A model generated the notes under the pieces. It worked only from the letters and a program-made list of their open reading frames with translations. It was not told the origin of the DNA and did no database searches. Shown piece by piece: positions 9 through 63,734 of a DNA stretch of 64,000 bases. Source of the DNA: Chloroflexota bacterium. GTDB lineage: Bacteria; Chloroflexota; UBA11872. The translations under genes and the position numbers were made by a program. Each line of letters opens with the position of its first letter. Position 1 is the first letter of the stretch. The stretch is from assembly GCA_965263175.1 (NCBI GenBank), contig OZ253587.1, positions 607,341 to 671,340 of the forward strand. Reading direction: 5' to 3'.

Positions 9-653
9 GTGTTTGCCCAGCGGCGCTCGCAGCTCATAGCTGAGATCAGGGCGTCGGGTCGCGAGATATCGGCGCCGGTGCTGGCGGCGGTAGAACGGGT
101 GGATCGGCACCGGTTCGTGCGGCCTGAGAACAGGGACGAGGCGTACGAGAACCGGCCGCTGCCCATAGGCGAGGGGCAGACCATCTCGCAGCCGCTGATC
201 GTGGCGATGATGACCGAGGCGCTGGGCATTTCGCCCGGCGACCGGGTGTTGGAGGTGGGGACCGGATCGGGATACCAGGCGGCGGTTCTTGCGGAGATGG
301 GTGTCAAGGTTTACAGCGTGGAGATCATTCCGGCCCTGGCTGAGTGGTCGGAGGGGAACCTGCGCGGGGCTGGCTACGAGGAAGTCAAGCAGCGGACGAA
401 CGACGGATATTTCGGTTGGGAAGACGAGGCGCCGTTTGACGGGATCATTGTGACGGCGGCCCCAGATCATGTGCCGCAGCCGCTGATCCGGCAGCTGCGG
501 GTGGGCGGACGAATGATCGTGCCCGTCGGTCCGCCGGGGTTCTACCAGACGCTGTGGAAGATCGAGCAGACGGCGGAGGGGGTGGTGGCGACGAACCTTG
601 GACTGGTTCGCTTCGTTCCGCTTACCGGGGCGTGGACGGCTGAAGATCCGTAG
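9..653 (+). CDS. pcm: protein-L-isoaspartate O-methyltransferase, copy 1
   Basis: 214-aa ORF with PCMT hallmarks: GQTISQPLIVAMM, SAM-binding VLEVGTGSGYQAAVLAE and C-terminal VRFVPLTG. GTG at 9, but the frame is open to the window edge, so the start is approximate. Confidence 0.9.
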   Translation: MFAQRRSQLIAEIRASGREISAPVLAAVERVDRHRFVRPENRDEAYENRPLPIGEGQTISQPLIVAMMTEALGISPGDRVLEVGTGSGYQAAVLAEMGVKVYSVEIIPALAEWSEGNLRGAGYEEVKQRTNDGYFGWEDEAPFDGIIVTAAPDHVPQPLIRQLRVGGRMIVPVGPPGFYQTLWKIEQTAEGVVATNLGLVRFVPLTGAWTAEDP

Positions 654-2961
654 CTCGCCATAGCGGGACGGCGACGGCGTAGGCCGCGGCCGCGCCGAGC
701 AGCGTCCAGGCGAAGCCGATGGATACGATCAGGATGGCGGCCACGAAGGCGGCGGCGACCGAGGCCGTGCCGTTGACCGCCCAGGCCCACGAGATGGCTG
801 AGCGGTCGTCCGCCAGTGCGCGGATGGCGGAGGGCATGACGGTTCCCAAGGCCAGTGACGGCATGGCCGCCAGGACGCCCACGACTACCCGGACGGCGAG
901 CGGCGCGCCGAGGGCCAAGGGCGCAGCGAGCAACAGGCCACCGAGCAGCACGACGCCGAGGGCTGCGGTAGCGGCGGCATCGCCCGGTGTAGGGCGCCAC
1001 CAGCGCGAAGACAGGCTGCCGAGGCCGGCCCAGGCCAGCATGGCGGCGATGCCGGTGGCGAAGGCAAATGTGGGCGCGTCGAGCACCAGGATGAGTCGCT
1101 GCAGCAGGGCGATTTGCGTGGCCGTGAAGGCGACGCCGGCCGCGGCAACAAAGGCGAGGCGGCGGAGACCGACGCGACGGGCCCCGAGGCGACGGCGGCC
1201 CATGAGCGGGGCGATCGTGGTGAGGACGGCCGCGCCGGTGGCGGCCGCCGCCAATGGGACAAGCACCAGGAAACCCGCTCCGCCGAACGGCTGCCAGGTA
1301 CGGCCCGTCGAGGCCAGGACTTCGCCCCAGCGCGCCCAGTCGAAGTAGTGGAAGAAGTAGGGGCGGTCGTCGGTGACGGGCGCCCAGGCCTCCGGCGTTG
1401 GCTCGCCCCGAACCACGGCACGAAACGCGCGGTAGAGCGAGGTGTCGGGCAGGCGGTTGAAGCGGTTCGACTCCGCTTCCTGAAGTTTCACGTGAAACAC
1501 CCAGTCGAAGCCGTCGCGCTCAAGGACGTTTGTAAGCGCCTGGAGTTCCGCAGCTGTGAAGGGAGTTGGAGAGGCGACCATGGCCACGACTTCCAGCGAG
1601 CGCCAGGCCAGCACGTGGGCGGCTGGGTCGGCGATACCTGCCTGACGGAGGGCGTCCAGCACGGAGGCCCACATGCGTACTGACTCGGAGGGTGTGGCTT
1701 GCAGCCAGCGGGTTATGACGAGGCGGCCGTTGGGGGATAGGGCAGGCCAGCCGTCGGCGAGGGCGTCGCGGGTGAGGGCGTAAGTCTCGCGGAGGCCGAA
1801 GGTGCCCGCGGCCACGCCTTGAAAGGACTCGCGCAACGGCCAGATCACCAAGTCGTAGTCAGTGGCCGACCGCAGGGCCGAGCGGACGCCTTGCTCCACC
1901 ACGCGGACACGGTCATCGCCAATCACTGTGGCGTCGCCAACGTCGTGCCAGGCTTGGCGCAGGGCGGCGTCGGGTTGGATGAGGTCGACTTGGTCGACGC
2001 CGGCGCGGAGCAGGACAGCGGCATCGAAGGCGCCGATCGGATCGAGTAGCAGGGCCGATGCGGCGGGTCGTATGCCGATGGCGTGGGTGAGTGGGACGTG
2101 GTCCAGGGCCTCGGCAACGGGGACGTCCAGCGCCGCGGCGTTTCCGCCGTCGACGGTCACGCCGACGCTGGGCCTGGGAACCGGGCCGCTGTAGTTCAGG
2201 CTGAGGCCGGTGGCTGTGCGCAGCCCGGCGTTCTGGAGGACGTCCACGCGCGAGTTGGCCGAGAGCCTCGTGTCGAGGCGTCGGGCATCGGGGCGTTGCA
2301 GAGCCTGGGCGAGCTGTGAGTGGACGGAGACTTGGGGCCCGGCGGGCGCGATAACGATGGCTGCGACGACGAGGGCGATGGCCGTCAGGCCGGCACCGAT
2401 GGCCGGTAGCCGTGGGGCCGCGACGATCGGCGCGGCCACGGCAATGGCGGCGGCTAGCAAGATCGTCGTGGCCGATCCAGCCGAGGCCAACAGCGGCACG
2501 GCCAGCGCCGCGCCGGCGGCCGAGCCGACCAGACTCGCGCCATACGTCACTCCCGCCCGGGCCGGGTTGCGACGTAGCGCGGCGACGACGGCCACCCCGG
2601 CGCAGGTGAACGGCACCGCCGCCACGATGAAGAAGAGCGCCAGCCATACCAACTGACTGGCGTCGACACCGATCCGGTAGGTGTCGAGCGGAATGCGGTC
2701 GGCCGTGACATAGGCGCCGACGGCGGTGAGGGCGAAGAGTGCACCGGCCCAACTGATGGCTGTCTCAGGCGCCGCGCCGGCCAGACGCGAGGAGGTAGCC
2801 GTCAATGTCCCGGCCGCGCCGATGCCAAGCAGGGCCATGGCAATGGCGACGAAGGCGAAGTGGTGCCCCTGCGCAATCGCGTACACACGCGTAAGCGCAA
2901 TCTCGAAGAGCAAGCTGGCCGCTGAAACCAGGGCCAGACCGGCGACGAGCCTGAATTTCAC
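622..2961 (-). CDS. polytopic membrane protein, fused MFS/spermidine-synthase-like family
   Basis: 779-aa ORF. The N-terminal hydrophobic block begins LLFEIALTRVYAIAQGHHFAFVAIAMALLGIGAAG, a motif typical of membrane-anchored spermidine-synthase-like proteins. A central soluble region of about 300 aa is followed by a second C-terminal multi-helix hydrophobic block. The 3' end overlaps pcm copy 1 convergently by 32 nt. Confidence 0.6.
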   Translation of the reverse strand: MKFRLVAGLALVSAASLLFEIALTRVYAIAQGHHFAFVAIAMALLGIGAAGTLTATSSRLAGAAPETAISWAGALFALTAVGAYVTADRIPLDTYRIGVDASQLVWLALFFIVAAVPFTCAGVAVVAALRRNPARAGVTYGASLVGSAAGAALAVPLLASAGSATTILLAAAIAVAAPIVAAPRLPAIGAGLTAIALVVAAIVIAPAGPQVSVHSQLAQALQRPDARRLDTRLSANSRVDVLQNAGLRTATGLSLNYSGPVPRPSVGVTVDGGNAAALDVPVAEALDHVPLTHAIGIRPAASALLLDPIGAFDAAVLLRAGVDQVDLIQPDAALRQAWHDVGDATVIGDDRVRVVEQGVRSALRSATDYDLVIWPLRESFQGVAAGTFGLRETYALTRDALADGWPALSPNGRLVITRWLQATPSESVRMWASVLDALRQAGIADPAAHVLAWRSLEVVAMVASPTPFTAAELQALTNVLERDGFDWVFHVKLQEAESNRFNRLPDTSLYRAFRAVVRGEPTPEAWAPVTDDRPYFFHYFDWARWGEVLASTGRTWQPFGGAGFLVLVPLAAAATGAAVLTTIAPLMGRRRLGARRVGLRRLAFVAAAGVAFTATQIALLQRLILVLDAPTFAFATGIAAMLAWAGLGSLSSRWWRPTPGDAAATAALGVVLLGGLLLAAPLALGAPLAVRVVVGVLAAMPSLALGTVMPSAIRALADDRSAISWAWAVNGTASVAAAFVAAILIVSIGFAWTLLGAAAAYAVAVPLWRATDLQPSTPR

Positions 2962-3147: not shown

Positions 3148-3945
3148 GTGGAGGTCGCAGGCATGCCGCCTGTTCAGTTCGTTTTCACCATCAAGGGCGA
3201 TGCAATCCCACCGCGGCGATTTGCCGAGGCGGTTCGGTTATTTGCGCAATTGCTGGACGACGTTGATGCCGCCTACTCCCCCAACAACAAGCCGACGATG
3301 CGCTGGCGTCTCGGGAAGCTTGAATCCGGAAGTGCTGTCGTGCCCTATATCGGGACTAGCAGGACCGCAGCTATCCCGTCGACTGTGAACGTGCCGTTGC
3401 TCTGCGTGCAGGGAGTCCGCGAACTCCAGCACGGCGTGGGAGAGCCGTCTGTCTTCGGACGCGAGGAGATTGGGCACATTCACCAGATAGGTCGAATGAT
3501 CCGTAACGGGATGTCTGGGTTCCGTCTCGACGCTCCAGACAGCGGCACGCACGCCGAGATCACCCCGACTGCCGTTGCAAACGCCGCAAAATTCCTGGCG
3601 CAGCAAGAGACTCTTGGCGCAGTTGAGGGACGTTTGGAGGCCGTGAACATTCACGGAGAACGACTCCGCTTCACGGTCTGGGACGCTGTCTCCGGACAGT
3701 CGGTCCGGTGCCGCTTTGACGACAGCCTCTTCGACAAGGTTATCAAGGCACTTCGAGCCAAGGTTCTCGTCACTGGACGCGTGCATCGCGATCCCGACGG
3801 ACGACCGCGTGAAATCAGGGAGATTACAGAACTGCGAAACCTGAGTTTGACGCCGAAGCGCCGCAGCGTCCTCGAACTGGAGGGCATCTACTCTGCCATG
3901 GAGGGGAACACGCTCGACTATCTGGCGGATATTCGTGGCGAGTAA
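3148..3945 (+). CDS. hypothetical protein (265 aa), upstream partner of the PIN nuclease
   Basis: ORF with GTG at 3148 or ATG at 3163, each preceded by GGAGG. Its stop overlaps the start of the next gene by 11 nt. No family motif recognised by eye. GC is lower than in the flanks. Confidence 0.6.
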   Translation: MEVAGMPPVQFVFTIKGDAIPPRRFAEAVRLFAQLLDDVDAAYSPNNKPTMRWRLGKLESGSAVVPYIGTSRTAAIPSTVNVPLLCVQGVRELQHGVGEPSVFGREEIGHIHQIGRMIRNGMSGFRLDAPDSGTHAEITPTAVANAAKFLAQQETLGAVEGRLEAVNIHGERLRFTVWDAVSGQSVRCRFDDSLFDKVIKALRAKVLVTGRVHRDPDGRPREIREITELRNLSLTPKRRSVLELEGIYSAMEGNTLDYLADIRGE

Positions 3946-5166: not shown

Positions 5167-6375
5167 TTACACTCCCGGCTCGTTGCCGAAGCGGTCGTGT
5201 TCTTCGGGCGTGCCGTCGAACTCCAGCGCGATAACCGTGTCGATGGGATCGGGGGCGTAGGCCGGCAGGCCGCGCAGCCAGACGCGGTGTCCGCGTTGCT
5301 CCACGGCGACCGGGAGGTCGGAACCCAACAGGCGCGCGCCAAGGATGCGTCCCCCGACGCCGCCGACCACGATCTCCTCGCCCGGCCAGCGCCAGCAGTG
5401 CAGGTAGAGCGTATTGCCGATCTTCGTGTGCGTGCGGCCCGCACTGCTGATGCGCAGCCGGTCGGCGGTCGCTTCGCTGCCGTATATCGACTCGCCGTAC
5501 ACGTCCAGCCAGCGGCCCATGGCGCGCAGCCGCTCCACCGACTCGAACGGAATGCGGCCGTCGGGATCGGGCCCCACGTTTAGCAGGTAGTTCCCTCCGC
5601 CGTTGGCCGCGGTCACCAGGTAGTGAATGAGCTGTCGCTGGGACTTCCACTCCCGGTCGATGGTGGAATAGCCCCAGGTCGTGTTCATGGTCATGCAGCT
5701 CTCCCACAGCCGATCCGGGGAGGGCGTGACGTGCTGCTCGGGGGTATCGAAGTCCTCCGGCTGCATGGAGCGGTTGTTGATGAGGATGTCGGGGCGCAGA
5801 CGTCGGACTTCGGCGTTCAGCGGGGTCGAATCCCAGTCCTCCGGCGTGTAGGGCCAGCCGCCGTCGTACCACAGAACCGAGAGGTCGCCGTAATTGGTGC
5901 ACAGTTCCAGCACCTGCGCGTGCACGTAGGCCAGAAACTTCGCCCAGCCCTCAGGGTCGCGGGCCTTGCCGCGGAAGTAGGCCGGGTAGCGCCAATCCAG
6001 CAACGAGTAATAGAAGCCGTAGCGCATGCCGCGCTTCTCGCAGGCGTTCACGAATTCGGCCAGCAGGTCGCGGCGGGCCGCGGTCTTGGGGGCCGTGAAG
6101 TCCGAGACCTTGGAGTCCCAGAGGCTGAAGCCTTCGTGGTGGCGCGAGGTCAGGATCATGTAGCGCATGCCCGCGTCCTGGGCCAGGGCCACCCACTCCT
6201 CGGGGTTGTAGTGCTGGGGATTGAAGCGATCCGCCAGCCCGCGATATTCCTCCGGCGGAATGCTCTCCTGGTACATCGTCCACTCGTGGCGGGCCAGGAG
6301 CGCGTAGAGTCCCCAGTGGATGAACATGCCGAAGCGGGCGTCGTGCCACCAGGACAGTGCGGCGGGGGTCGGCAT
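5167..6375 (-). CDS. alpha-L-fucosidase, GH29 family
   Basis: WWHDARFGMFIHWGLYALLARHEW and HHEGFSLWDS motifs typical of GH29. ATG at 6375 is preceded by AAGGA. The ORF is open to 6489, which is an alternative start. Confidence 0.85.
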   Translation of the reverse strand: MPTPAALSWWHDARFGMFIHWGLYALLARHEWTMYQESIPPEEYRGLADRFNPQHYNPEEWVALAQDAGMRYMILTSRHHEGFSLWDSKVSDFTAPKTAARRDLLAEFVNACEKRGMRYGFYYSLLDWRYPAYFRGKARDPEGWAKFLAYVHAQVLELCTNYGDLSVLWYDGGWPYTPEDWDSTPLNAEVRRLRPDILINNRSMQPEDFDTPEQHVTPSPDRLWESCMTMNTTWGYSTIDREWKSQRQLIHYLVTAANGGGNYLLNVGPDPDGRIPFESVERLRAMGRWLDVYGESIYGSEATADRLRISSAGRTHTKIGNTLYLHCWRWPGEEIVVGGVGGRILGARLLGSDLPVAVEQRGHRVWLRGLPAYAPDPIDTVIALEFDGTPEEHDRFGNEPGV

Positions 6376-6641
6376 AGGGGAGTCCTTGGATTTGGGTGTG
6401 GAATAGCCGGCAGCATGCTCCGGCGTGGCGCCATTGGGCAATAGCGGGGCGCCGGGCTGTGGGTCATGTGGGCATTGGTGTGCCGTCATGCAGCGCGTTA
6501 GATGCGGGCGGACGCGCGGGTCCCTCGATCCGTCTGCCAGCAGGCGGCGAGGTTCCTGACTATTCCTCGCTCCGCTTGGAATGACCAGGGGCGCTCGGAG
6601 TATCTGTGTTGGCCGTCAAGGGGTCGTTATGCTCGTGCATC

Positions 6642-6973: not shown

Positions 6974-7246
6974 GTGCCTGACCGTCGATCTCGCCTAACG
7001 CGTCCGCTCAATCCCATGCCGCCTGAGGTCGAACGTGCCCTGGAGGACGCCGGCCTGATGGAGGTCTACCAGGCCCGCCCGCCGTACCAGCGTAATGACT
7101 ACCTTGGCTGGATCGACCGGGCCAAGCGGCCCGGGACGAAGGCCCGCCGCCTGCAGCAGATGCTGGATGAACTGGAGCAGGGAGACGTGTACATGAAGAT
7201 GGCGTGGCGGCCTGGCGGAGCCCGCGGGCCTAAGGGAAGCGACTGA
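6974..7246 (+). CDS. YdeI/OmpD-associated family protein (short form)
   Basis: PPYQRNDYLGWIDRAKRPGTKARRLQQMLDELEQG matches the YdeI/OmdA C-terminal domain pattern. ATG at 7016 is an alternative start. Confidence 0.55.
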   Translation: MPDRRSRLTRPLNPMPPEVERALEDAGLMEVYQARPPYQRNDYLGWIDRAKRPGTKARRLQQMLDELEQGDVYMKMAWRPGGARGPKGSD

Positions 7247-7279
7247 CCAGGCGAGCCGAAGATGTGCAACGGCAGCGGG

Positions 7280-7308
7280 TTGATATGTGTATCGGTACAC
7301 GGTACAAT
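7280..7308 (+). promoter_or_regulatory. putative sigma-70-type promoter of higBA (TTGATA-N17-TACAAT)
   Basis: TTGATA at 7280-7285 and TACAAT at 7303-7308 with 17-nt spacing. The -10 element ends 5 nt before the higB GTG (7314), implying a leaderless or near-leaderless transcript. GTAC repeats (GGTACACGGTACA) overlap the spacer and could be an operator. Confidence 0.4.
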
Positions 7309-7313
7309 CAAGC

Positions 7314-7592
7314 GTGATTCGGACCTTCCGCCACCGTGGGCTCAGGCGGCTATATGATCGGGGCGACTCCAGCAGGCTGCGAGCGGACCAAGTGGAGCGG
7401 ATCAGGGTTGCGTTGGCGGTCCTTGATTCGGCGCGGTCACCGAATGACTTGTCAATGCCGGGATATCGGTTGCATCAACTGAAGGGCAGCCTTCAAGGAT
7501 TCTGGAGCATACGGATCACCGGAAACTGGAGGATTGTTTTTCGATTCGACGGTGACGACGTATATGACGTCGACTTGGTCGACTATCACTAG
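7314..7592 (+). CDS. higB: type II toxin HigB (RelE/ParE superfamily)
   Basis: [18 protein letters not shown]...[43 protein letters not shown] is the typical HigB sequence pattern. Toxin-first gene order matches hig loci. The ORF is open from 7287. Confidence 0.85.
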
Positions 7593-7608
7593 ACCTAAGG
7601 GAGAAACG

Positions 7609-7911
7609 ATGGCCATGTACGACCCCCCGCATCCCGGTCGAAACATCCAGGAGAACTGTCTGGAACCGCTTGGTTTGAGCGTCACGAACGCAGCTAAGGG
7701 CTTGGGTGTGGCGCGTCACACGCTGTCGCGGGTGCTGAACGGTAATGCGGGGATCTCGCCGGAGATGGCGATTCGACTCGAAAAGGCCGGCTGGTCGAAC
7801 GCCGAGTTCTGGCTGCGGCTCCAGGCCGCCTACGATTTGGCGCAGGCGCGCCAGCGCCAGGACCAGATCTTGATAGAGGCATCGTTACTTGAGGCCCAGC
7901 CGGCGGACTGA
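7609..7911 (+). CDS. higA: type II antitoxin HigA (XRE-family HTH)
   Basis: [73 protein letters not shown] at 7609 is preceded by AAGGGAG and lies 16 nt after the higB stop. Confidence 0.9.
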
Positions 7912-8503
7912 CCGTCGACCAGTGTTCGGTGCTACTTGCTGACCAGGAGGGCGGCGGCTAGGTCCAGTAGCGCCAGGAAGCCCACGACGTCGGCCTCGGC
8001 GGTGACCACGACGCTCGGGCCCAACGCGGGGTTATTGCCAGGCGCTTCACGCCCAGTAGATTCACCGCGCCGACGACGCAGGTTGCATGTGTTGCGATCA
8101 GAAAGGCCGCCGCGCATTCAGGCCCTGACACTGGCCCCCGCCAGAAGCTCGTAGTGTCGTTAATGAGGTCCTCGGCCGAGCGAGCCAGCGTGGACTCTCG
8201 AGCCGAGCTGTGCGTTCCATGAGACGCGGTACAGACACCTAGGCCCGGCACCGGTTCATCCAGTTACCAGACAGACTAAGCGCCGTAGACGTGTCGGGGA
8301 TGTGCGACTGATTGCGACGGCCAGAGGCTGCGGTTCCGCCTTGAGCGTAATGCAGCGAGGAGGTCGACTAAGGAGTCCGAACAACTGGCTTTCCACAATG
8401 ATCTTGTACTGTCTGTATAGTCGTGATCGAGTGAACTCGGCAGCGGCGATAGTCCCTGCGCACACTCCGACGGGTCGCCAGCACTATTCGAGGGAGGCTT
8501 GGC

Positions 8504-11500
8504 ATGCCGAAGAGATTGGGAATGGCTCTCGTTTTCGGCCTGATGTTTGCAATCACGATGCTGCCTGTGCGAGCGCTGGACTGCGGTGGAGATGCCGGCG
8601 TCCCGCTGGACGACGGGTGCTTGTTCACAATCACCGGCAGCGATACGCCGGATTCGGCCGATGGCTTCGCCGTGACCAATGCGGACGAGGTTCCGCTGTG
8701 GGACTTCGTGCGGGTGAGGGACCTCCAGGCCATCGGTTATCCCATCAGTCAGCGGTGGGTCGAAGGCCAGTTCACGCTTCAGGCGTTCCAGAAGGTGATT
8801 TTGCAATGGGACCCGGGTCGGCGGCAGATGAACTACTACAACACGCTGGATGTGCTGGCGAATCGGTATCCCCGCGTGAACCTGCCGAACGTACCGGTAC
8901 ACGAGGTTCTGGCCGCAGACTTCGGAGCAGATTTCGCGACAGTGACGCAAAACCACCTGGCGATCCTGGACCGGAATCCGAAGATCAAGTCGCGCTTCCT
9001 GGCGGAGCCGGACTGGCTGAACCTTTACGGGCTGCCAATTCGGTATGAGGCACGGGAGGTCAACGGGAATGCGGAAGGCCTACAGGTGCTGCGCACACAG
9101 CGGACTGTGTTCGTGGTCTGGAACGTGCCGGCGCCCGGGACGACGGTGGGACAGGTGCTGCTTCAGAACGTGCCGGACAAGGTAAAGAAGCTGACCAACG
9201 TGATCATTCCGGACGCGGCCAAGGCGCCGATCCGACCCGAAGCTGTCGAAGACCTCCCACGTCTAACGTTGACGGATCAGCTGGCACCGCCCACAAGTGA
9301 TCGGCCGACGAGTCTTGAGGGCTGTGCCGGCGGTGCAGTGGTCCCAAGTCCGGGATTGCATCCTGAGCTGGTGAGAGACTGCCTGATTCTCCTGCAGATC
9401 CGCGATGTGTTGGTGGCGGATGGGTCGCTGAACTGGACTGCGAGTCGGCCGATCGCGGAGTGGGAGGGGATCGCGGTTGGGGGCACGCCGCGTCGCGTCC
9501 AGTCGTTATCCATAAGCGGTGGCGAGCGCGGAGGGACAATTCCGGCTGAAATCGGCGGACTGACTGGGCTGCGTGCGCTTCAAATCCGAGGCAATGCATC
9601 AATCGACGCGATTCCGTCCCAGGTCGGGCTTTTGGTAAATCTGCAAGTGCTTGATCTCTTCAATAACCAGCTCACCGGGACGCTACCTTTGCAGATCGCA
9701 CGCTTGGCCAATCTGCAGCACCTCAACCTGGGTTACAACCGACTCTCGGGTTCGATTCCCCAAGAGTTCGGTCAACTCGATTCTCTACGGGTTCTTAGCC
9801 TCTACAACAACCAGCTAGCAGGCGTGATACCACCGCAGCTTGGACGGCTGGGCACTCTGACATGGCTAGGCCTGGGCAGAAATAATCTGGCCGGCGGGAT
9901 CCCGCCAGAGCTTGGGCAATTGAGCCGGCTCCAGACACTTAAGCTTGATAGCAATCCGCTCGGCGGCACCATTCCGATAGAACTTTCCGATCTGGCAGAC
10001 CTGACGGAACTCGATCTGAGAGGAACTAGGCTGACGGGTGGAATCCCATCATCCGTGAACCAATTGGCGAGTCTTCGTACACTTGACCTTGGCGAGAATC
10101 AGTTAACGGGTCCGATTCCGGCGACCTTGGGTCAGCTGTCAAATCTGCAGATACTGCAGCTTCAGTACAACCCACTGAAGGCTGATATTCCACACGAGCT
10201 AGGCCGTCTGCACAGGTTGGAGAAACTTGTTCTAACCGGAAGCCAACTGACAGGCTCTATTCCAGAGGAACTGGGACAACTAACGAATCTGAAGGAGCTC
10301 AGCCTCGGCGGTAACAAGCTAACGGGTCCGATCCCGGCATCGCTCAGTGGCTTGACAGCGCTTGAGGTGCTTCATGCCGGCAACAATCAGCTATCGGACT
10401 CGATTCCTGCCGAGCTCGGCCAACTTCAAAACCTCAGAGAGCTTTCACTCCGCGTCAATCGGCTTAGTGGCCCAGTACCTTCTGAATTTGGAAACCTCAC
10501 ACAATTGCAGCAGCTTGCTCTCAGCGGCAACGGTCTCACGGGTTCGATTCCGCCGGCGTTGAGCCGCCTACCTGCGTTGGCCACGCTATATCTCGGGGGC
10601 AATCGCCTCACTGGTTCGATTCCGGCGTCGCTGGGTGAGCTCACGAGTCTTCGAGAGCTAGGCCTCGGTGGAAATCATCTAACGGGTTCGATCCCACCAA
10701 CGCTCGGCTACCTCGCGAACCTCGAGTTCCTGGGCCTGGAAAGCAATTCGCTGACTGGGCCAATCCCAGCCGAGTTAGGCCGACTATCAAACTTACGGGA
10801 GCTAGACCTAAGCTTCAACCAGCTGAGTGGCCCGATACCGGCGGCATTTGGCCAGCTTATGAGCCTTGAGTGGCTCGGGCTTCGGGACAACCAGCTAGCG
10901 GGCTGCATGCCGGCGGGCTTGGCTGCTGTCCGTACGCGAGATCTTGGTCCTCCCGAGCATCCATTCTGTGACGACCAGCCGGTGCCAGAAACTGAAAGGA
11001 CGCCGGATACGTCCGTCCAAACCAGCGTGAGTTCAGCCGACAATGGGGCATGCACGGACGGACTAGTCGTGCCCCAGCCGCAGACGCACCCCGGTCTGGT
11101 TCTCGACTGCAAGATCTTGTTCGCGATTCGCTGGACGTTGGCCGGGACCGCCGGGCTGAATTGGGGTGCTGGTCGATCCATATCCATCTGGGATGGGGTT
11201 GTTCTGGGCGGCTCACCGCCGAGGATCCACGAGCTTGTGCTGGCAAAGAAGGGACTCTCAGGCTCGATACCGGTGATCATCGGTGAGTTGACGGAATTGA
11301 CTAACTTGGATCTTATGGAGAATCAGTTAACGGGATCAATCCCTGCGAGTCTCGGACGCTTGGCTCGACTAACGAAGCTCTACCTCAATTTCAACGAGCT
11401 GTCCGGGAATATTCCGGAAGAACTGGGGGAAATGTCCGAGCTTCAAGTGCTTTTCCTTTACAGCAACTCGCTGACGGGTCGTATTCCAAAGGAGTTGGGC

Positions 11501-12268
11501 CAGTTGTCGAAGCTGACACACCTGTACCTAAGTACCAATAGCCTGAGCGGTTCAATCCCCGACGAATTGGGCCGCCTTTCACGCCTTACGGAACTCTCTT
11601 TGCGATACAATCAATTGGAAGGTTCGATCCCCGCATGGCTTGGAAGCCTGCGTGAACTCGAAGCACTACACTTATCAAACAACCGGCTCACGGGGACAAT
11701 TCCGACAGAGCTTGGTGGGTTGCATAAGCTTCGAGAGCTGTGGCTGAACACAAACAGTCTCGCTGGCTCGATACCAGCGGATATTGGCCGACTCTCGAAT
11801 CTGCATCATTTGTATCTATCTGAAAACCAATTGGATGGTCCAATTCCTGTTGATCTGGGTCAGCTCTACAACTTACGGGAGTTGGATCTCCTCGGTAATC
11901 GGATTACTGGTTCGATTCCGGCGGAGCTTGGCCAGCTTGCGAGTTTGAGCAGTCTGAATCTCGGTTCCAATCGGTTGACGGGACCTATTCCAGCGACACT
12001 TGGCCAGCTGACAAACTTAGACAGCCTCCGCCTTCAGCACAATCGGTTGACAGGTGCCATTCCCGGCTCGCTAGGACTATTGTCTAGCCTCACACTCCTC
12101 AACCTCGCCCGCAATGATCTGACCGGGACGATACCCGGGGAGTTAGGACGCCTGGATGGTTTGCGCGGAGTTTACCTGAGCGGCAACCAGCTGGATGGGT
12201 GCGTCCCCGGTCGTTGGAAAGTGCTTCCGAACAGTGATCTCAATGCACTTGGGCTGCCGTATTGCTAG
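8504..12268 (+). CDS. secreted protein with two tandem plant-type leucine-rich-repeat modules (1254 aa)
   Basis: Strong SD (GGGAGG) before the ATG. Signal-peptide-like N-terminus MPKRLGMALVFGLMFAITMLPVRA. An N-terminal domain of about 270 aa is followed by two modules. Each module has a Cys-containing N-cap, then 24-residue LxxLxLxxNxLtGxIPxxLGxL repeats, then a Cys-containing C-cap. Confidence 0.9.
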   Translation: MPKRLGMALVFGLMFAITMLPVRALDCGGDAGVPLDDGCLFTITGSDTPDSADGFAVTNADEVPLWDFVRVRDLQAIGYPISQRWVEGQFTLQAFQKVILQWDPGRRQMNYYNTLDVLANRYPRVNLPNVPVHEVLAADFGADFATVTQNHLAILDRNPKIKSRFLAEPDWLNLYGLPIRYEAREVNGNAEGLQVLRTQRTVFVVWNVPAPGTTVGQVLLQNVPDKVKKLTNVIIPDAAKAPIRPEAVEDLPRLTLTDQLAPPTSDRPTSLEGCAGGAVVPSPGLHPELVRDCLILLQIRDVLVADGSLNWTASRPIAEWEGIAVGGTPRRVQSLSISGGERGGTIPAEIGGLTGLRALQIRGNASIDAIPSQVGLLVNLQVLDLFNNQLTGTLPLQIARLANLQHLNLGYNRLSGSIPQEFGQLDSLRVLSLYNNQLAGVIPPQLGRLGTLTWLGLGRNNLAGGIPPELGQLSRLQTLKLDSNPLGGTIPIELSDLADLTELDLRGTRLTGGIPSSVNQLASLRTLDLGENQLTGPIPATLGQLSNLQILQLQYNPLKADIPHELGRLHRLEKLVLTGSQLTGSIPEELGQLTNLKELSLGGNKLTGPIPASLSGLTALEVLHAGNNQLSDSIPAELGQLQNLRELSLRVNRLSGPVPSEFGNLTQLQQLALSGNGLTGSIPPALSRLPALATLYLGGNRLTGSIPASLGELTSLRELGLGGNHLTGSIPPTLGYLANLEFLGLESNSLTGPIPAELGRLSNLRELDLSFNQLSGPIPAAFGQLMSLEWLGLRDNQLAGCMPAGLAAVRTRDLGPPEHPFCDDQPVPETERTPDTSVQTSVSSADNGACTDGLVVPQPQTHPGLVLDCKILFAIRWTLAGTAGLNWGAGRSISIWDGVVLGGSPPRIHELVLAKKGLSGSIPVIIGELTELTNLDLMENQLTGSIPASLGRLARLTKLYLNFNELSGNIPEELGEMSELQVLFLYSNSLTGRIPKELGQLSKLTHLYLSTNSLSGSIPDELGRLSRLTELSLRYNQLEGSIPAWLGSLRELEALHLSNNRLTGTIPTELGGLHKLRELWLNTNSLAGSIPADIGRLSNLHHLYLSENQLDGPIPVDLGQLYNLRELDLLGNRITGSIPAELGQLASLSSLNLGSNRLTGPIPATLGQLTNLDSLRLQHNRLTGAIPGSLGLLSSLTLLNLARNDLTGTIPGELGRLDGLRGVYLSGNQLDGCVPGRWKVLPNSDLNALGLPYC
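9497..10936 (+). repeat. LRR module 1: 20 consecutive 72-nt (24-codon) coding repeats
   Basis: Hand-parsed from the translation (residues 332-811). Every unit is exactly 24 aa with no indels. The module is bounded by the N-cap starting at Cys274 (nt 9323) and the C-cap NQLAGCMP...HPFC (to nt 10969). Confidence 0.85.
11225..12232 (+). repeat. LRR module 2: 14 consecutive 72-nt (24-codon) coding repeats
   Basis: Residues 908-1243, all units 24 aa. Preceded by a second N-cap from Cys850 (nt 11051) that is colinear with the first: C..G.VVP.P..HP.LV.DC..L..IR..L....LNW......W.G...GG.P.R. Followed by the C-cap NQLDGCVP...LPYC. Confidence 0.85.
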
Positions 12269-61978: not shown

Positions 61979-62009
61979 ACCGTTCCGCCGCCAATACGTG
62001 TCTAAAGCG

Positions 62010-62036
62010 AAAGGCCGCGCCGAAGGCGCGGCCTTT
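62010..62036. terminator. bidirectional intrinsic terminator hairpin between convergent genes
   Basis: Perfect 11-bp stem AAAGGCCGCGC / GCGCGGCCTTT with 5-nt loop CGAAG. A/T runs on both sides. It lies between the + strand stop (61978) and the - strand stop (62054). Confidence 0.8.
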
Positions 62037-62053
62037 CCACAGAGCGCGGGCGA

Positions 62054-62317
62054 TTAGCTTTCCTTCTTCACTCCCAGGTCGCCGTTACGCATCTCAAAAT
62101 TCACTTTGATACCGGCCTGAACGGCGGCTGCCTGGATCCGACCGCGGAGCGTCGGCTGACGCTTCTTTTCGTCGTCGGACAGGCTGACAACAACCCACTC
62201 GCCGTCCTTGCTGCGCCTGGCGGCGCGAACGATTTCTCTGATTTCGGGGCTGACGCGCCGCATGCGCTGCGGTCGGCTCGTCCATTCACCACCTGAAACG
62301 ACTTCCTTAAGCCTCAT
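62054..62317 (-). CDS. small basic hypothetical protein (87 aa)
   Basis: ATG 62317 is preceded by a strong SD (AGGAGGA, 7-nt spacer). Lys/Arg/Glu-rich. GC is lower than in neighbouring genes. No family recognised. Confidence 0.6.
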   Translation of the reverse strand: MRLKEVVSGGEWTSRPQRMRRVSPEIREIVRAARRSKDGEWVVVSLSDDEKKRQPTLRGRIQAAAVQAGIKVNFEMRNGDLGVKKES

Positions 62318-62924
62318 CTACCGTCCTCCTAGCTACGGTGCAACGGATCATGCACTAAATGAGTTTGCTACATCTCTATGTGAAGCGCAACTGACAACTG
62401 TCGATCCACCGATGTGACGGTAGGCGTCAGAGTTTCGGAGCAAGGATAACTCTTTGCTGACTAGGGGCAGCTTTTCCAGTGCGCCTGACGGGACATATCA
62501 GGATGCAATTCCTATAGCTTTCGGCGCCGGCACAATGCAGTTGGACATGATTCCGGATTCGATCCAAGCGTCAACGCTAAGGCTGCGTCTGGGCTGAAGG
62601 CGATGGTGAGGCTCGGCTATATTGGTCGGCGTGGCACCAGCTTCCACTAACGCAGCGTCTCAAAATCCACCGGCGATCCGCTCCGCTCCCGAAGACCCGT
62701 CGACGACATGCTTTGCATGATGACGTGCCATTGCGCGTAACGAAGTCGATCCATGAAATCCGAGACAGCCGCGCACCGTAAGGCGGCAGCGTTACGTGCG
62801 CACGGCTAGAGTCGTGCCGAAGGAAATGTAGATAGTTCCAAAGTCATCACGTGCTATCGGAGCACGAAACGTACGCGGTCTGGGCGGGCCCGTTAGCTAG
62901 TCGAGGTGGGAGCGCGGTGGGTTA

Positions 62925-63734
62925 TCACGCTGGAATGTGGACCCAATCCCAGGTGAGGGTGGATTGGGGGAAGACAGGGCCGGTGTGGCAGACGCGCTGG
63001 GGGCCGGTGGTGGTTTGGACGACGCAGGAGTAGCAGACGCCCATGGCGCACCCCATGCGGGCTTCCAGCGCGGTAAACGCGGGGCGCGGTCCGTGGATGG
63101 AGGTGAGTTCGTCCGTGAGCGCGGCCATGGCCCGCATCATGGGCGTGGGGCCGCAGACGAAGATCTGGTCGCACCAGCCGAAATGGTCGGAAACCAGGTC
63201 GGTTACGAAGCCGTGATGGCCGAGCGTGCCGTCGTCGGTGGCAATTAGGTAGTCCGCGCTCTTGTCCAGCCAGGCGGCCGGCGTGATCTGATGGGCGTCG
63301 CGTCCGCCAGCGAGCAGGCGCACCTGGACCCCTTGCGCCGGCGCCAGCTCGGCCAGCGCGATGAGGGGGGCCAGGCCGATGCCGCCGCCGACCATCAGCG
63401 CCCGCCGGCGGTTGGGCTGGAATATGAAGTTGCTGCCCAATGGCCCCAGCATGTCGACTTCGGCCCCTACCGGTTGGTCCACCAGCCACGCCGTGCCTCT
63501 GCCGACGGTGTCGATAAGGAAGGCGACCCGTCCGCGGTCAGGCTCGATGCGGCTGAAGCTGAGCGGCCGGCGCAGGAGCGGGTCGAGTTGATCGGGCGCG
63601 CTGCACAACACGTGTGCGAACTGGCCGGGGCGCGAACAGGCGGCGATCTGGGGCGCTTGGTATTCACACCACCAGAGACGTTCGGTGATGCGCGTATTGC
63701 ACAGCACGCGGGCGGATTCGATCCGCCGAGTCAT
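62925..63734 (-). CDS. pyrK: dihydroorotate dehydrogenase electron-transfer subunit
   Basis: FAD/NAD-binding RRPLSFS and MVGGGIGLAPL motifs, plus the C-terminal 2Fe-2S cluster motif MGCAMGVCYSCV...C. The ATG overlaps the carB stop (ATGA). Confidence 0.85.
   Translation of the reverse strand: MTRRIESARVLCNTRITERLWWCEYQAPQIAACSRPGQFAHVLCSAPDQLDPLLRRPLSFSRIEPDRGRVAFLIDTVGRGTAWLVDQPVGAEVDMLGPLGSNFIFQPNRRRALMVGGGIGLAPLIALAELAPAQGVQVRLLAGGRDAHQITPAAWLDKSADYLIATDDGTLGHHGFVTDLVSDHFGWCDQIFVCGPTPMMRAMAALTDELTSIHGPRPAFTALEARMGCAMGVCYSCVVQTTTGPQRVCHTGPVFPQSTLTWDWVHIPA

What the first reader, a model, noticed from the sequence alone, without database searches (positions are those of the whole stretch)
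8504..12268. Secreted 1254-aa protein with a duplicated plant-type LRR ectodomain-like module and a chimeric GC profile
After a signal peptide and a 270-aa N-terminal domain, the protein contains two complete modules. Each has an N-cap with paired cysteines and an LNW...W.G...GG.P.R...L motif (reminiscent of the plant LRRNT_2 cap). This is followed by 20 and 14 perfectly phased 24-residue repeats of the plant-specific consensus LxxLxxLxLxxNxLtGxIPxxLGxL. Each module ends in a C-cap, NQL(A/D)GC(M/V)P...(F/Y)C. I counted 34 repeats without a single indel. This repeat type is typical of plant receptor kinases and PGIPs and differs from the 22-residue internalin type. The N-terminal domain has host-like GC (67 % at 8581-8640), while the LRR part is 48-60 %. 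That pattern suggests fusion of a native secretion/anchoring domain to a horizontally acquired, internally duplicated LRR module. Eukaryote-like repeat proteins of this kind are associated with host-associated (symbiont or pathogen) lifestyles.
Basis: partly seen in the sequence, partly recalled or inferred. Interest (0 to 1): 0.7.

Follow-up and report, generated by a model that had tools for sequence, protein, structure and literature searches.

The report
Secreted two-module LRR protein, Chloroflexota
This gene encodes an exported protein from a probably sponge-associated Chloroflexota bacterium that joins a conserved, unannotated N-terminal domain, possibly a cell-wall anchor, to two capped "plant-type" leucine-rich-repeat binding modules; it is a typical eukaryote-like repeat protein, but its N-terminal domain defines a large family that carries many different cargo domains.

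Summary
ORF 8504-12268 (+) encodes 1254 aa: a Sec signal peptide, a ~225-aa N-terminal domain, and two capped LRR modules of 20 and 14 in-phase 24-residue units matching the "plant-specific" consensus.

- **Carrier domain.** The N-terminal domain has no Pfam or NCBIfam match. It heads a multi-copy family in Chloroflexota MAGs, about 10 or more copies per genome. The same domain and signal peptide are fused to at least nine unrelated C-termini, including HExxH peptidases, LRR, RCC1 and PD40. A confident model weakly resembles LGFP cell-wall-binding repeats.
- **Codon usage.** The chimera is real. LRR GC3 is 0.58-0.59 against 0.81 expected, while the N-domain is native. The same dip occurs across the family's other cargoes and in orthologues up to dS of about 1.
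- **Origin.** Nothing points to plants. The same Cys-bracketed LRR module occurs in 118 of the 120 best hits, which where identifiable are bacterial.
- **Duplication.** It is old. Four orthologues align without a single gap under purifying selection.

Verdict: a Sec-exported LRR binding protein, probably held at the cell envelope. It is a known kind of protein built on an undescribed carrier domain. Interest is moderate.

The parts
8492..8496 (+). Shine-Dalgarno GGAGG, 7 nt upstream of the ATG
   Evidence: Read directly from the sequence. A weak sigma-70-like site at 8392-8421 is not above chance.
8504..8575 (+). Sec-type signal peptide, aa 1-24 (MPKR / hydrophobic core / VRA|LD)
   Evidence: Sequence features. 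The AxA|(L/I)(D/E)C junction is conserved in about 90 paralogues. D at position -1 of the Cys rules out a lipobox.
8576..9253 (+). Conserved N-terminal carrier domain, aa 25-250: Cys pair C27/C39 and two G-x-P-centred beta units with a helical insert. Unannotated and weakly LGFP-like.
   Evidence: No Pfam or NCBIfam hit. 148 close clusters. 785 representative clusters at E<=1e-3. AlphaFold2 model pLDDT 95.3, pTM 0.91. Foldseek top hits are the MytA LGFP domain 6swz (E 3.4e-3, prob 0.93) and actinophage LysA/amidases (E 8e-4). G54-x-P56 and G152-L-P154 are invariant across the wide family. Codon usage is native.
9254..9319 (+). Pro/Thr-rich linker, aa 251-272. This is where paralogue similarity ends.
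   Evidence: Family identity drops to background after about aa 270. pLDDT is low at the model's end.
9320..9499 (+). N-cap of LRR module 1, aa 273-332 (C274...C293, LNW...W.G...GG.P.R)
   Evidence: The same cap motif is seen in 118 of the 120 best LRR hits. W-x-G-V aligns in register with the plant LRRNT_2 region.
9500..10939 (+). LRR array 1: 20 in-phase 24-residue units, aa 333-812. The last unit belongs to the C-cap.
   Evidence: PDB sequence hits to the plant receptor-kinase ectodomains MIK2, ERL1 and BRI1 cover this array. GC3 is 0.594 against 0.806 expected.
10868..10969 (+). C-cap 1, aa 789-822 (NQLAGCMP...HPFC; C801/C822)
   Evidence: Both Cys are conserved in four orthologues.
10970..11047 (+). 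Inter-module linker, aa 823-848 (acidic, Pro/Thr/Ser-rich)
   Evidence: Least conserved stretch among orthologues, 53-63% identity.
11048..11227 (+). N-cap of LRR module 2, aa 849-908 (C850...C869, LNW...W.G...GG.P.R)
11228..12235 (+). LRR array 2: 14 in-phase 24-residue units, aa 909-1244
   Evidence: The best PDB stretch is GSO1 324-630. GC3 is 0.580 against 0.808 expected.
12164..12268 (+). C-cap 2, aa 1221-1254 (NQLDGCVP...LPYC; C1233/C1254), plus the stop codon
   Evidence: There is no LPXTG or other C-terminal sorting motif.

Best explanation
The gene encodes a Sec-exported LRR binding protein of a Chloroflexota bacterium that is probably a sponge symbiont.

**Proposed mechanism**
1. Signal peptidase I cleaves after VRA24.
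2. The disulfide-stabilised N-terminal domain (aa 25-250) most likely holds the protein non-covalently on the cell envelope, or on another glycan. It contains two G-x-P-centred beta units resembling LGFP repeats.
3. A flexible Pro/Thr linker follows. Two disulfide-capped LRR solenoids of 20 and 14 repeats, joined by a second linker, project outward as ligand-binding surfaces. The ligands are presumably host or matrix proteins.

**Family context.** The protein belongs to a paralogous family of about 10 or more genes per genome. The same signal peptide and N-domain carry interchangeable cargoes: HExxH metallopeptidases, LRR, RCC1, PD40 propellers, glycosidases and acidic repeats. The LRR modules are of a capped type that is widespread among the LRR proteins retrieved, including ones from bacteria of other phyla. 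They carry non-native codon usage.

**Shown.** The architecture, the family, the orthologue conservation, purifying selection and the codon chimera.

**Inferred.** Export, envelope or glycan binding by the N-domain, and host interaction.
For: **Architecture and export**
- Architecture and repeats.
- The signal peptide is conserved family-wide, and a Shine-Dalgarno is present.
- Ten Cys form five local pairs, all conserved in four orthologues. This fits an extracytoplasmic protein.

**Orthologues**
- Orthologues L001, L002 and L003 are 1254-1255 aa and show zero gaps against the window protein, with downstream synteny.
- dN/dS is 0.09-0.33 in every region. LRR scaffold positions give 0.07 and concave variable positions give 0.32-0.34.

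**N-domain family**
- 133 tblastn relatives in Chloroflexota species genomes.
- Several unrelated cargo clusters.
- A sharp identity boundary after about aa 270 in a tandem triplet with three different cargoes.

**N-domain function**
- A confident model.
- The best fold matches in two libraries are LGFP-type cell-wall-binding regions: MytA 6swz and Gordonia/Rhodococcus phage lysins.
- LGFP domains of MytA bind peptidoglycan-arabinogalactan (PMC11299179).
- Distant homologues are fused, at either end, to peptidoglycan hydrolases (Peptidase_M23, Amidase_2, Amidase_3), HtrA-like proteases and GH5/GH113.

**LRR pool**
-.
- One homologue lies next to recombinase, relaxase and toxin-antitoxin genes. 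Another lies in a locus with 57% GC flanks and has GC3 0.625.

**Literature context.** LRR eukaryote-like repeat proteins are enriched in sponge symbionts, including Chloroflexota (PMC8163846, PMC6306507).
Against: - The LGFP link is weak. TM-scores are 0.27-0.30. No Pfam LGFP hit occurs in any of 78 family members. HMM searches against PDB sequences find nothing. The internal-repeat signal is marginal (hhalign probability 10%).
- Fusion to GH5/GH113 would equally fit a substrate- or host-glycan-binding module.
- No signal-peptide predictor, expression data or localisation data were available.
- Sponge origin rests on isolate names and on the names of LRR relatives, not on sample metadata.
- The ligand is unknown.
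- The cause of the low GC3 is unresolved.
Confidence: 0.6

Rival explanations
1. One reading: the LRR part is a plant or other eukaryotic receptor-like ectodomain, acquired horizontally and recently, then duplicated inside this gene.
For: - The best solved-structure sequence matches are plant receptor kinases (GSO1 E 5e-173, MIK2, FLS2).
- The repeat consensus equals the plant-specific class.
- The cap W-x-G-V is in register with LRRNT_2.
- LRR GC3 lies 5 SD below the window's genes.
Against: - The best database hits that can be identified are bacterial, and the printed examples share the same Cys-bracketed caps at 35-50% identity. Closterium and papaya proteins reach only 34-38%.
- Pfam LRRNT_2 is not hit, and the plant Cys pair is absent.
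- The architecture is shared without gaps by orthologues at dS up to about 1.0, so the event is old.
- The two modules show no colinear similarity beyond the repeat consensus.
- There is no excess of shared codons between repeats.
- The low GC3 also affects unrelated cargoes of the family.
Confidence: 0.07
2. The N-domain is not a self-anchor. It is a carbohydrate-binding module that targets released proteins to host or dietary polysaccharide such as sponge matrix. The LRR protein would then be a soluble, matrix-bound factor rather than a cell-surface one.
For: - Distant homologues are fused to GH5, GH113 and other secreted enzymes, at either terminus, as CBMs are.
- The window holds a GH29 fucosidase nearby.
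- Sponge Chloroflexota are known glycan degraders (PMC8163846).
Against: - Several fusion partners are peptidoglycan hydrolases (M23, Amidase_2, Amidase_3), which are usually targeted to bacterial walls.
- The only fold matches are wall-binding LGFP regions.
- These points favour wall binding but do not exclude glycan binding.
Confidence: 0.2
3. The low GC3 of the LRR part reflects selection or a local mutational regime, not foreign origin. Possible drivers are slow translation for solenoid folding or export, or flattened codon usage in repeats.
For: - The dip is maintained in four orthologues despite dS of 0.3-1.0, long enough for substantial amelioration.
- Leu codons are used almost evenly in the LRR part.
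Against: - Flattened codon usage lowers inter-repeat nucleotide identity only from 0.52 to 0.49. There is no avoidance of identical codons beyond chance (0.283 against 0.273 +/- 0.005).
- Non-repetitive cargoes of the family show the same dip.
- Other LRR paralogues have GC3 up to 0.86.
Confidence: 0.25
4. The protein serves a bacterial-intrinsic role unrelated to the host, such as cell-cell cohesion in filaments, envelope organisation, or binding of bacterial or phage proteins.
For: - Purifying selection acts even on the concave variable positions (omega about 0.33), and repeat number is strictly conserved. Both suggest a stable, conserved ligand.
- Family cargoes include proteases and peptidoglycan hydrolases with housekeeping-like roles.
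Against: - The family and its closest LRR relatives come from MAGs and metagenome assemblies that appear sponge-derived.
- LRR proteins are enriched in sponge symbionts relative to seawater MAGs (PMC8163846).
Confidence: 0.15

Closest known systems
Eukaryote-like repeat (ELR/ELP) proteins of sponge symbionts, LRR class (Reynolds & Thomas 2016; Bayer et al. 2018, PMC6306507; Robbins et al. 2021, PMC8163846)
   Same: LRR-rich protein from a Chloroflexota lineage that is apparently sponge-associated. It shares capped LRR modules with proteins from other phyla: the named hits are Acidimicrobiales (including Candidatus Poriferisodalis) and Gemmatimonadota, and one locus has planctomycete-like neighbours.
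   Different: Published surveys count Pfam repeats and do not, in the passages read, describe an export or anchoring architecture. Robbins et al. note that few lineages encode dedicated secretion systems. Here the route appears to be a plain Sec signal peptide plus a conserved N-terminal domain shared with many non-ELR cargoes.
Plant LRR receptor kinase / receptor-like protein / PGIP ectodomains (plant-specific LRR class with LRRNT_2 cap)
   Same: 24-residue LxxLxLxxNxLtGxIPxxLGxLxx consensus. Very strong sequence matches to GSO1, MIK2, FLS2 and ERL1 ectodomains. The cap W-x-G-V motif is in register. Both ends are disulfide-capped and the setting is extracytoplasmic.
   Different: No transmembrane helix or kinase. 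No Pfam LRRNT_2 hit, and the CxWxGVxC pair is replaced by a different Cys bracket (C-x18-C upstream). There are two tandem capped modules, no island domain, and a bacterial carrier domain.
Bacterial proteins with plant-specific-like LRRs: Xanthomonas effectors XopAE, XopAC/AvrAC, XopL; Leptospira LIC LRR proteins (PDB 4U08, 4U09, 4U06)
   Same: Same broad repeat class. NCBIfam gives partial matches to XopAE (317 bits), XopAC (278) and LIC_11051 (226). PDB hits include LIC11098, LIC12759 and LIC10831.
   Different: All scores fall far below the family cut-offs (600, 450, 1000). The Xop proteins are type III substrates without Sec signal peptides (from general knowledge, not tested here). None carries this N-domain or these Cys-bracketed caps.
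Listeria internalins (signal peptide + LRR + cell-wall anchor)
   Same: The likely working logic: a Sec-exported LRR binding domain held at the surface of a bacterium without an outer membrane by a wall-binding module.
   Different: Internalins have 22-residue repeats, an inter-repeat Ig-like domain, and a C-terminal LPXTG or GW anchor. NCBIfam internalin_A scores 129.5 bits against a cut-off of 1600. Here the putative anchor is N-terminal and unrelated in sequence.
LGFP-repeat cell-wall-binding domains (C. glutamicum MytA/PS1 C-terminal domain, PDB 6SWZ/6SX4; LysA endolysins of Gordonia and Rhodococcus phages)
   Same: These are the best fold matches in both libraries searched. Each unit has a helix followed by a small antiparallel sheet, as described for LGFP (PMC11299179). 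A G-x-P motif is invariant at the start of each unit. The wider family is fused to peptidoglycan hydrolases.
   Different: No Pfam PF08310 hit. No HMM hit to MytA. TM-scores are only 0.27-0.30. There are two units plus a roughly 60-residue helical insert and an extra N-terminal disulfide hairpin, and the domain is N-terminal.

Membership tests
Plant-specific (PS) LRR class (Kobe/Kajava, Matsushima classification) | Repeat length of 24 residues, kept in phase | tested here: met
   34 units, all 24 residues, no indel. A spacing of 24 dominates in the paralogues.
Plant-specific (PS) LRR class (Kobe/Kajava, Matsushima classification) | Consensus LxxLxLxxNxL(t/s)GxIPxxLGxLxx | tested here: met
   Column consensus xxLxLxxNqLtGsIPaeLGqLxnL. 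P is 34/34, N 30/34, G 31/34 and I 30/34.
Plant-specific (PS) LRR class (Kobe/Kajava, Matsushima classification) | Restricted to plants (implied by the name) | tested here: not met
   7787 proteins reach E<=1e-30. Among the listed best hits, the named ones and the sampled loci are mostly bacterial. NCBIfam matches to XopAE, XopAC, XopL and LIC_11051.
Plant LRR receptor ectodomain (LRRNT_2 + LRR + TM/kinase) | LRRNT_2 (PF08263) N-cap with the CxWxGVxC cysteine pair | tested here: not met
   No PF08263 hit, even at E<=10, on aa 1-332 or 813-908. The motif reads EWEGIAV and IWDGVVL, without Cys. Only a positional alignment to the plant cap is seen.
Plant LRR receptor ectodomain (LRRNT_2 + LRR + TM/kinase) | Transmembrane helix and kinase (RLK) or TM tail (RLP) | tested here: not met
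   The ORF ends at the C-cap (…LPYC*). Pfam finds only LRR families.
Internalin family | 22-residue LRRs, an inter-repeat region, LPXTG/GW anchor, and the NCBIfam internalin models | tested here: not met
   The period is 24. internalin_A scores 129.5 bits against a cut-off of 1600, and InlH scores 80 against 1050. There is no C-terminal sorting motif.
Xanthomonas LRR type III effectors (XopAE, XopAC, XopL) | Score above the NCBIfam equivalog or subfamily cut-off | tested here: not met
   317 against 600, 278 against 450, and 158 against 500 bits. The matches cover LRR stretches only.
LGFP repeat (PF08310) cell-wall-binding domain | Sequence match to the LGFP profile or to MytA | tested here: not met
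   No PF08310 hit among 78 family members at E<=0.01. Profile searches of PDB sequences do not find 6SWZ or 6SX4.
LGFP repeat (PF08310) cell-wall-binding domain | Fold: repeated units of one helix plus a 3-4-stranded antiparallel sheet around a conserved G-(F/Y/L)-P | tested here: inconclusive
   Model pLDDT is 95. The top PDB hit is 6swz (E 3.4e-3, prob 0.93, TM 0.28-0.30). The top viral hits are actinophage lysins (E 8e-4, TM 0.27). G-x-P is invariant in both units. The unit A against unit B profile alignment puts GYP over GLP, but at probability 10%.
LGFP repeat (PF08310) cell-wall-binding domain | Binds cell-wall polymers | not testable with these tools
   Only indirect evidence: fusion of distant homologues to Peptidase_M23 and Amidase_2/3.
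Sponge-symbiont eukaryote-like repeat proteins | Eukaryote-type repeat Pfam families in a bacterial protein | tested here: met
   LRR_1, LRR_8, LRR_4 and LRR_14 are far above their cut-offs.
Sponge-symbiont eukaryote-like repeat proteins | Encoded by a sponge-associated bacterium | tested here: inconclusive
   The closest genomes are titled only 'MAG: Chloroflexota bacterium'. Their isolate prefixes (COS, RHO) fit the sponges Coscinoderma and Rhopaloeides sampled in PMC8163846. LRR relatives are named Candidatus Poriferisodalis. No sample metadata were available, and the window's exact protein is not on record.
Sponge-symbiont eukaryote-like repeat proteins | Mediates host interaction, for example modulation of phagocytosis | not testable with these tools
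   No experimental data exist for this protein. Published tests concern ankyrin-repeat proteins (cited in PMC6306507 and PMC8163846).

The most novel reading that the evidence does not exclude
The unannotated N-terminal domain is a previously undescribed cell-envelope anchoring module, distantly LGFP-like. It would define a modular surface-display system in sponge-symbiotic Chloroflexota.

- A dozen or so genes per genome share the signal peptide and anchor, which appear to be kept alike by gene conversion.
- Cargo cassettes (LRR, RCC1, propellers, metallopeptidases, glycosidases) with non-native codon usage would be swapped in at a fixed linker boundary, partly from a gene pool shared among phyla of the sponge microbiome.
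- This would explain how eukaryote-like repeat proteins reach the host interface in symbionts that lack specialised secretion systems.
Probability: 0.3. Interest if true: 0.65.

Novelty: new variant of a known kind. Interest (0 to 1): 0.42.

Why it matters
LRR and other eukaryote-like repeat proteins are a recurrent signature of sponge symbionts. How they are delivered is an open point: Robbins et al. 2021 note that most such MAGs lack dedicated secretion systems.

This locus suggests a simple and testable route for one abundant phylum: Sec export plus a conserved N-terminal domain that probably binds the cell wall or a glycan.

The same domain heads many other secreted proteins, so it gives a sequence handle for listing the surface and secreted proteins of these uncultured bacteria. 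It is also a candidate for a new Pfam family. A confident model and about 785 representative clusters are already available.

The LRR part itself is ordinary for this habitat. The "plant-type" label should not be read as evidence of plant origin.

Tried and rejected
1. **First N-domain model.** It was built from 48 close homologues and was poor (pLDDT 53). Its fold search gave nothing. The problem was solved with a more diverse alignment from the representatives search.
2. **Sequence searches for the N-domain.** Pfam at E<=10, NCBIfam, and PDB profile searches with a narrow and a wide alignment found no credible hit. The best was E 0.017 to a 46-residue stretch of galactonolactone dehydrogenase, judged to be chance.
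3. **Recent internal duplication.** Rejected. There is no colinear diagonal between modules, no excess of shared codons between repeats, and the maximum inter-repeat nucleotide identity is 0.67.
4. **Codon diversification to protect the repeat array from recombination.** Rejected as a main cause of the low GC3. The effect on nucleotide identity is small, and there is no avoidance beyond chance.
5. **Amino-acid composition as the cause of the low GC.** It explains only part. Expected GC is 0.62-0.64 against 0.53-0.57 observed, and expected GC3 is 0.81 against 0.58-0.59 observed.
6. **Lipoprotein.** Rejected. The sequence A-L-D-C is not a lipobox.
7. **Provenance.**
   - The exact window protein is not on record.
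   - Cluster look-ups returned no names or accessions.
   - Encoding-contig look-ups returned only ENA analysis ids.
   - A literature search for the OZ accessions found nothing.
8. **RNA genes.** Rfam and tRNA scans of the window found none.
9. **Promoter and terminator scans.** Nothing above the shuffle expectation.

Full report
**1. Observation**

ORF 8504..12268 (+) starts at an ATG and encodes 1254 aa. A GGAGG Shine-Dalgarno sits 7 nt upstream.

Printing the protein in 24-residue rows shows 20 in-phase units at aa 333-812 and 14 at aa 909-1244, with no indel. The column consensus is xxLxLxxNqLtGsIPaeLGqLxnL. This is the 24-residue "plant-specific" LRR class. Pfam gives LRR_1 at E 4.5e-100 and LRR_8 at E 4e-88, and finds only LRR families.

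Each array is preceded by a 60-residue cap with a Cys pair and the motif LNW...W.G...GG.P.R. Each is closed by NQLxGC.P...C. The two N-caps align over 62 residues without a gap.

The ten cysteines form five local pairs: C27/39, C274/293, C801/822, C850/869 and C1233/1254.

The N-terminus (MPKR, hydrophobic core, VRA|LDC) looks like a signal peptidase I substrate. The D before the Cys excludes a lipobox.

- The N-terminal domain is about 225 aa plus a linker, not 270 aa.
- Pfam LRRNT_2 does not match.
- The quoted 67% GC is one favourable 60-nt window. The domain mean is 0.61-0.62.

**2. The GC chimera is real at the codon level**

The window is 66.6% GC and the ORF is 57.5%.

I took codon usage from 37 background genes of the window, whose GC3 is 0.808 +/- 0.043. 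From this I computed the GC3 expected from each region's amino-acid sequence:

| Region | Observed GC3 | Expected GC3 |
|---|---|---|
| N-domain | 0.788 | 0.800 |
| LRR1 | 0.594 | 0.806 |
| LRR2 | 0.580 | 0.808 |

Amino-acid composition explains only part of the GC drop. Leu codons are used almost evenly in the LRR part, while CTG makes up 56% of Leu codons in the background genes.

**3. Where it comes from, and orthologues**

A scan of one genome per species found 133 relatives of the N-terminal domain. All 76 loci retained are from records titled "Chloroflexota bacterium" MAGs. Many isolate names carry the prefixes COS or RHO. These fit Coscinoderma and Rhopaloeides, two sponges sampled by Robbins et al. 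2021 (PMC8163846). This link is an inference, because no sample metadata could be retrieved.

Three loci hold orthologues of 1254-1255 aa (L001, L002, L003). They align to the window protein without a single gap, at 46-92% identity per region; the signal peptide and inter-module linker are least conserved, and the structured regions are 68-92%.

The DNA match, which starts just upstream of the gene (8370-8488), continues downstream to about 15320 at 78-85% nucleotide identity. The upstream region is not conserved.

All ten Cys are conserved. Nei-Gojobori dS is 0.2-1.0, and dN/dS is 0.09-0.33 in every region. LRR scaffold positions give 0.07, and the concave variable positions give 0.32-0.34.

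The gene is therefore old, vertically inherited within this clade, and under purifying selection with a fixed repeat number.

**4. The N-terminal domain is the more informative part**

It has no Pfam or NCBIfam match. It does have 148 close relatives at 55-90% identity, whose precomputed Pfam domains differ widely: LRR, RCC1 and beta-propellers.

In the 76 loci I found 97 genes with this domain, often in tandem and about 10 or more per genome. Almost all begin with a basic/hydrophobic leader ending AxA|(L/I)(D/E)C.

Their C-termini fall into unrelated clusters:
- 40 with helical repeats plus an HExxH metallopeptidase
- 23 with plant-specific-type LRR
- 11 with RCC1
- 9 with acidic DxDxDG-type repeats
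- smaller groups: a PD40 propeller, a glycosidase-like domain, a lectin-like domain, and LRR plus HExxH

In locus L007, three adjacent genes carry three different cargoes: LRR, RCC1 and metallopeptidase. Their N-domains are 76-99% identical in nucleotides by 30-codon window, with patches of 97-99% that suggest gene conversion. Identity falls to background right after about aa 270.

It also generalises to the whole family.

**5. What the N-domain may do**

An exhaustive HMMER search of 1.84 billion representatives found 785 clusters at E<=1e-3 and 504 at E<=1e-10.

The distant members (30-45% identity) carry the domain at either end. Their partners include Peptidase_M23 (5 members), Amidase_2, Amidase_3, Trypsin_2+PDZ, PD40, GH5, GH113 and Peptidase_M1/MA. 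These are typical partners of wall- or glycan-binding accessory modules.

A first AlphaFold2 model from close homologues failed (pLDDT 53). With the diverse alignment A3, the model reached pLDDT 95.3 and pTM 0.91.

Foldseek gave these top hits:
- **PDB:** the C-terminal LGFP domain of C. glutamicum mycoloyltransferase A (6swz, E 3.4e-3, probability 0.93, TM 0.28-0.30).
- **Viral library:** the top three are N-acetylmuramoyl-L-alanine amidases or LysA of Gordonia and Rhodococcus phages (E 8e-4 to 7e-3, probability 0.95-1.0).

LGFP units are described as a helix followed by a 3-4-stranded antiparallel sheet. Those of MytA bind peptidoglycan-arabinogalactan (PMC11299179).

The model shows two such units:
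- helices 41-53 followed by strands 61-87
- helices 135-151 followed by strands 154-182

Each unit opens with a G-x-P motif. G54-x-P56 and G152-L-P154 are among the few invariant columns of the wide family.

Against this:
- The TM-scores are low.
- No member hits Pfam LGFP.
- PDB profile searches do not find MytA.
- The unit A against unit B profile alignment is marginal.

I therefore treat "LGFP-like wall anchor" as the best lead, at about 50%, and not as a membership.

**6. The LRR part in context**

A search with aa 271-1254 returned 7787 proteins at E<=1e-30. Most of the best hits carry no source name. The few bacterial names among them are Acidimicrobiales (including Candidatus Poriferisodalis) and Gemmatimonadota. 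The best hits reach 32-50% identity. A Closterium protein (38%) and papaya PEPR2 (34%) score no better.

Of the 120 best hits, 118 contain the W..WxG(V/I/L) cap motif, 94 contain the GC.P C-cap, and 100 have more than one N-cap. Most of the printed cap contexts show the same Cys-bracketed cap, C..GAV..NPGLVxDC..LL..RD.L.G...LNW...PI..W.GV.V.G.P.RV.

Within the N-domain family, LRR members have one, two or three capped modules with a strict 24-residue period.

The window's two modules are no more alike than any two repeats are:
- Mean repeat identity is 0.46 between modules and 0.44-0.48 within them.
- Identity at variable positions is 0.13-0.19 at every offset.
- Cap 2 is as close to the caps of single-module paralogues L053 and L065 (48-50%) as to cap 1 (46%).
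- Repeats share identical codons at chance level (0.283 against 0.273 +/- 0.005).

The duplication or module shuffle is therefore ancient, and multi-module architecture is common.

The cap's W-x-G-V aligns in register with the plant LRRNT_2 region in GSO1, FLS2, ERL1 and TMK3. However, the plant Cys pair is missing.

**7. Origin of the low GC3**

The dip is family-wide. N-domains average GC3 0.86-0.88. LRR cargoes average 0.76 and non-LRR cargoes 0.68. The window's orthologue group has the lowest LRR values, at 0.62-0.65 over the C-terminal part.

Three homologous multi-module LRR genes from other genomes were sampled:
- Their flanks have 57-64% GC.
- One has GC3 0.625, which is close to its flanks.
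- One sits beside a serine recombinase, a relaxase and toxin-antitoxin genes.
- One has planctomycete-type neighbours.

This fits exchange of cargo cassettes within a shared habitat. Robbins et al. report lateral transfer of such genes.

However, the dip persists across dS of about 1. That persistence argues for either repeated exchange or selection, and I could not decide between them.

**8. Mechanism proposed**

The proposed path is Sec export, then cleavage after VRA24. The disulfide-stabilised N-domain then retains the protein on the cell envelope. Chloroflexota are generally regarded as lacking an outer membrane; this comes from established knowledge and was not tested here. Finally, two disulfide-capped LRR solenoids on flexible linkers act as binding surfaces.

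The logic resembles internalins, but none of the family-defining features of internalins is met. The ligand is unknown. Purifying selection on the concave face suggests a conserved partner.

**9. Verdict**

The protein itself is a new member of a well-known kind, the LRR eukaryote-like repeat proteins of symbionts, here apparently of sponges. "Plant-type" LRRs are common in bacteria.

The added value is the unannotated carrier domain and its cassette-like family. These offer a concrete and testable answer to how such proteins are displayed. Interest is moderate.

Noticed in passing
window 6974-7911: Directly upstream lie an OmdA/YdeI-like gene (6974-7246) and a HigB-like toxin / HTH_3 antitoxin pair (7287-7592, 7609-7911). 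Synteny with the orthologous loci L001-L003 breaks at about 8370-8488. The closest fragment, L077, has OmdA and HTH_3, and also an MgtE gene between them and the LRR gene. That MgtE gene is absent from the window's 592-nt gap at 7912-8503.
   Followed up: partly
L007:1515-11507 (OZ244789.1): Three tandem genes share the N-terminal domain at 76-99% nt identity (30-codon windows), with patches of 97-99% that suggest gene conversion. They carry three different cargoes: 36 LRRs, RCC1 repeats, and a helical-repeat HExxH peptidase. Identity drops to background after about aa 270.
   Followed up: partly
L004:1325-2200 and L005:9078-9980 (CBDAOU010000002.1): An N-domain copy is split over two reading frames (196-aa and 275-aa pieces covering query residues 1-145 and 142-205). 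It is either a frameshifted pseudogene or an assembly error in a family member.
   Followed up: no
window 5167-6489 (-): A GH29 alpha-L-fucosidase (Pfam Alpha_L_fucos, E 4e-89). Robbins et al. 2021 report this glycosidase family as enriched in sponge-associated MAGs.
   Followed up: no
window 61979-62892: A low-GC patch: 62001-63000 is 58.3% GC against 66.6% for the window. It holds no ORF of 150 aa or more. The only sizeable ORF there is 62054-62317 (-), 87 aa and lysine/arginine-rich. No Rfam family or tRNA lies there.
   Followed up: partly
window 3148-3945 (+) and 622-2961 (-): Two sizeable ORFs have no Pfam match: a 265-aa ORF in a 60% GC patch and a 779-aa ORF at 70% GC.
   Followed up: no
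L082:8001-20731: A 1576-aa multi-module LRR homologue (45% identity, same caps) lies next to a serine recombinase, NYN and PIN/RHH toxin-antitoxin genes, and a Replic_Relax gene. This looks like an integrative mobile element. A 2262-aa cadherin/fn3 protein lies upstream.
   Followed up: no
family-wide (97 genes in L001-L076): The N-domain has higher GC3 (0.86-0.88 on average) than every class of cargo fused to it (0.54-0.86), whatever the cargo type. The cause is unresolved. It could be foreign cargo, selection, or GC-biased conversion of the N-domain.
   Followed up: partly
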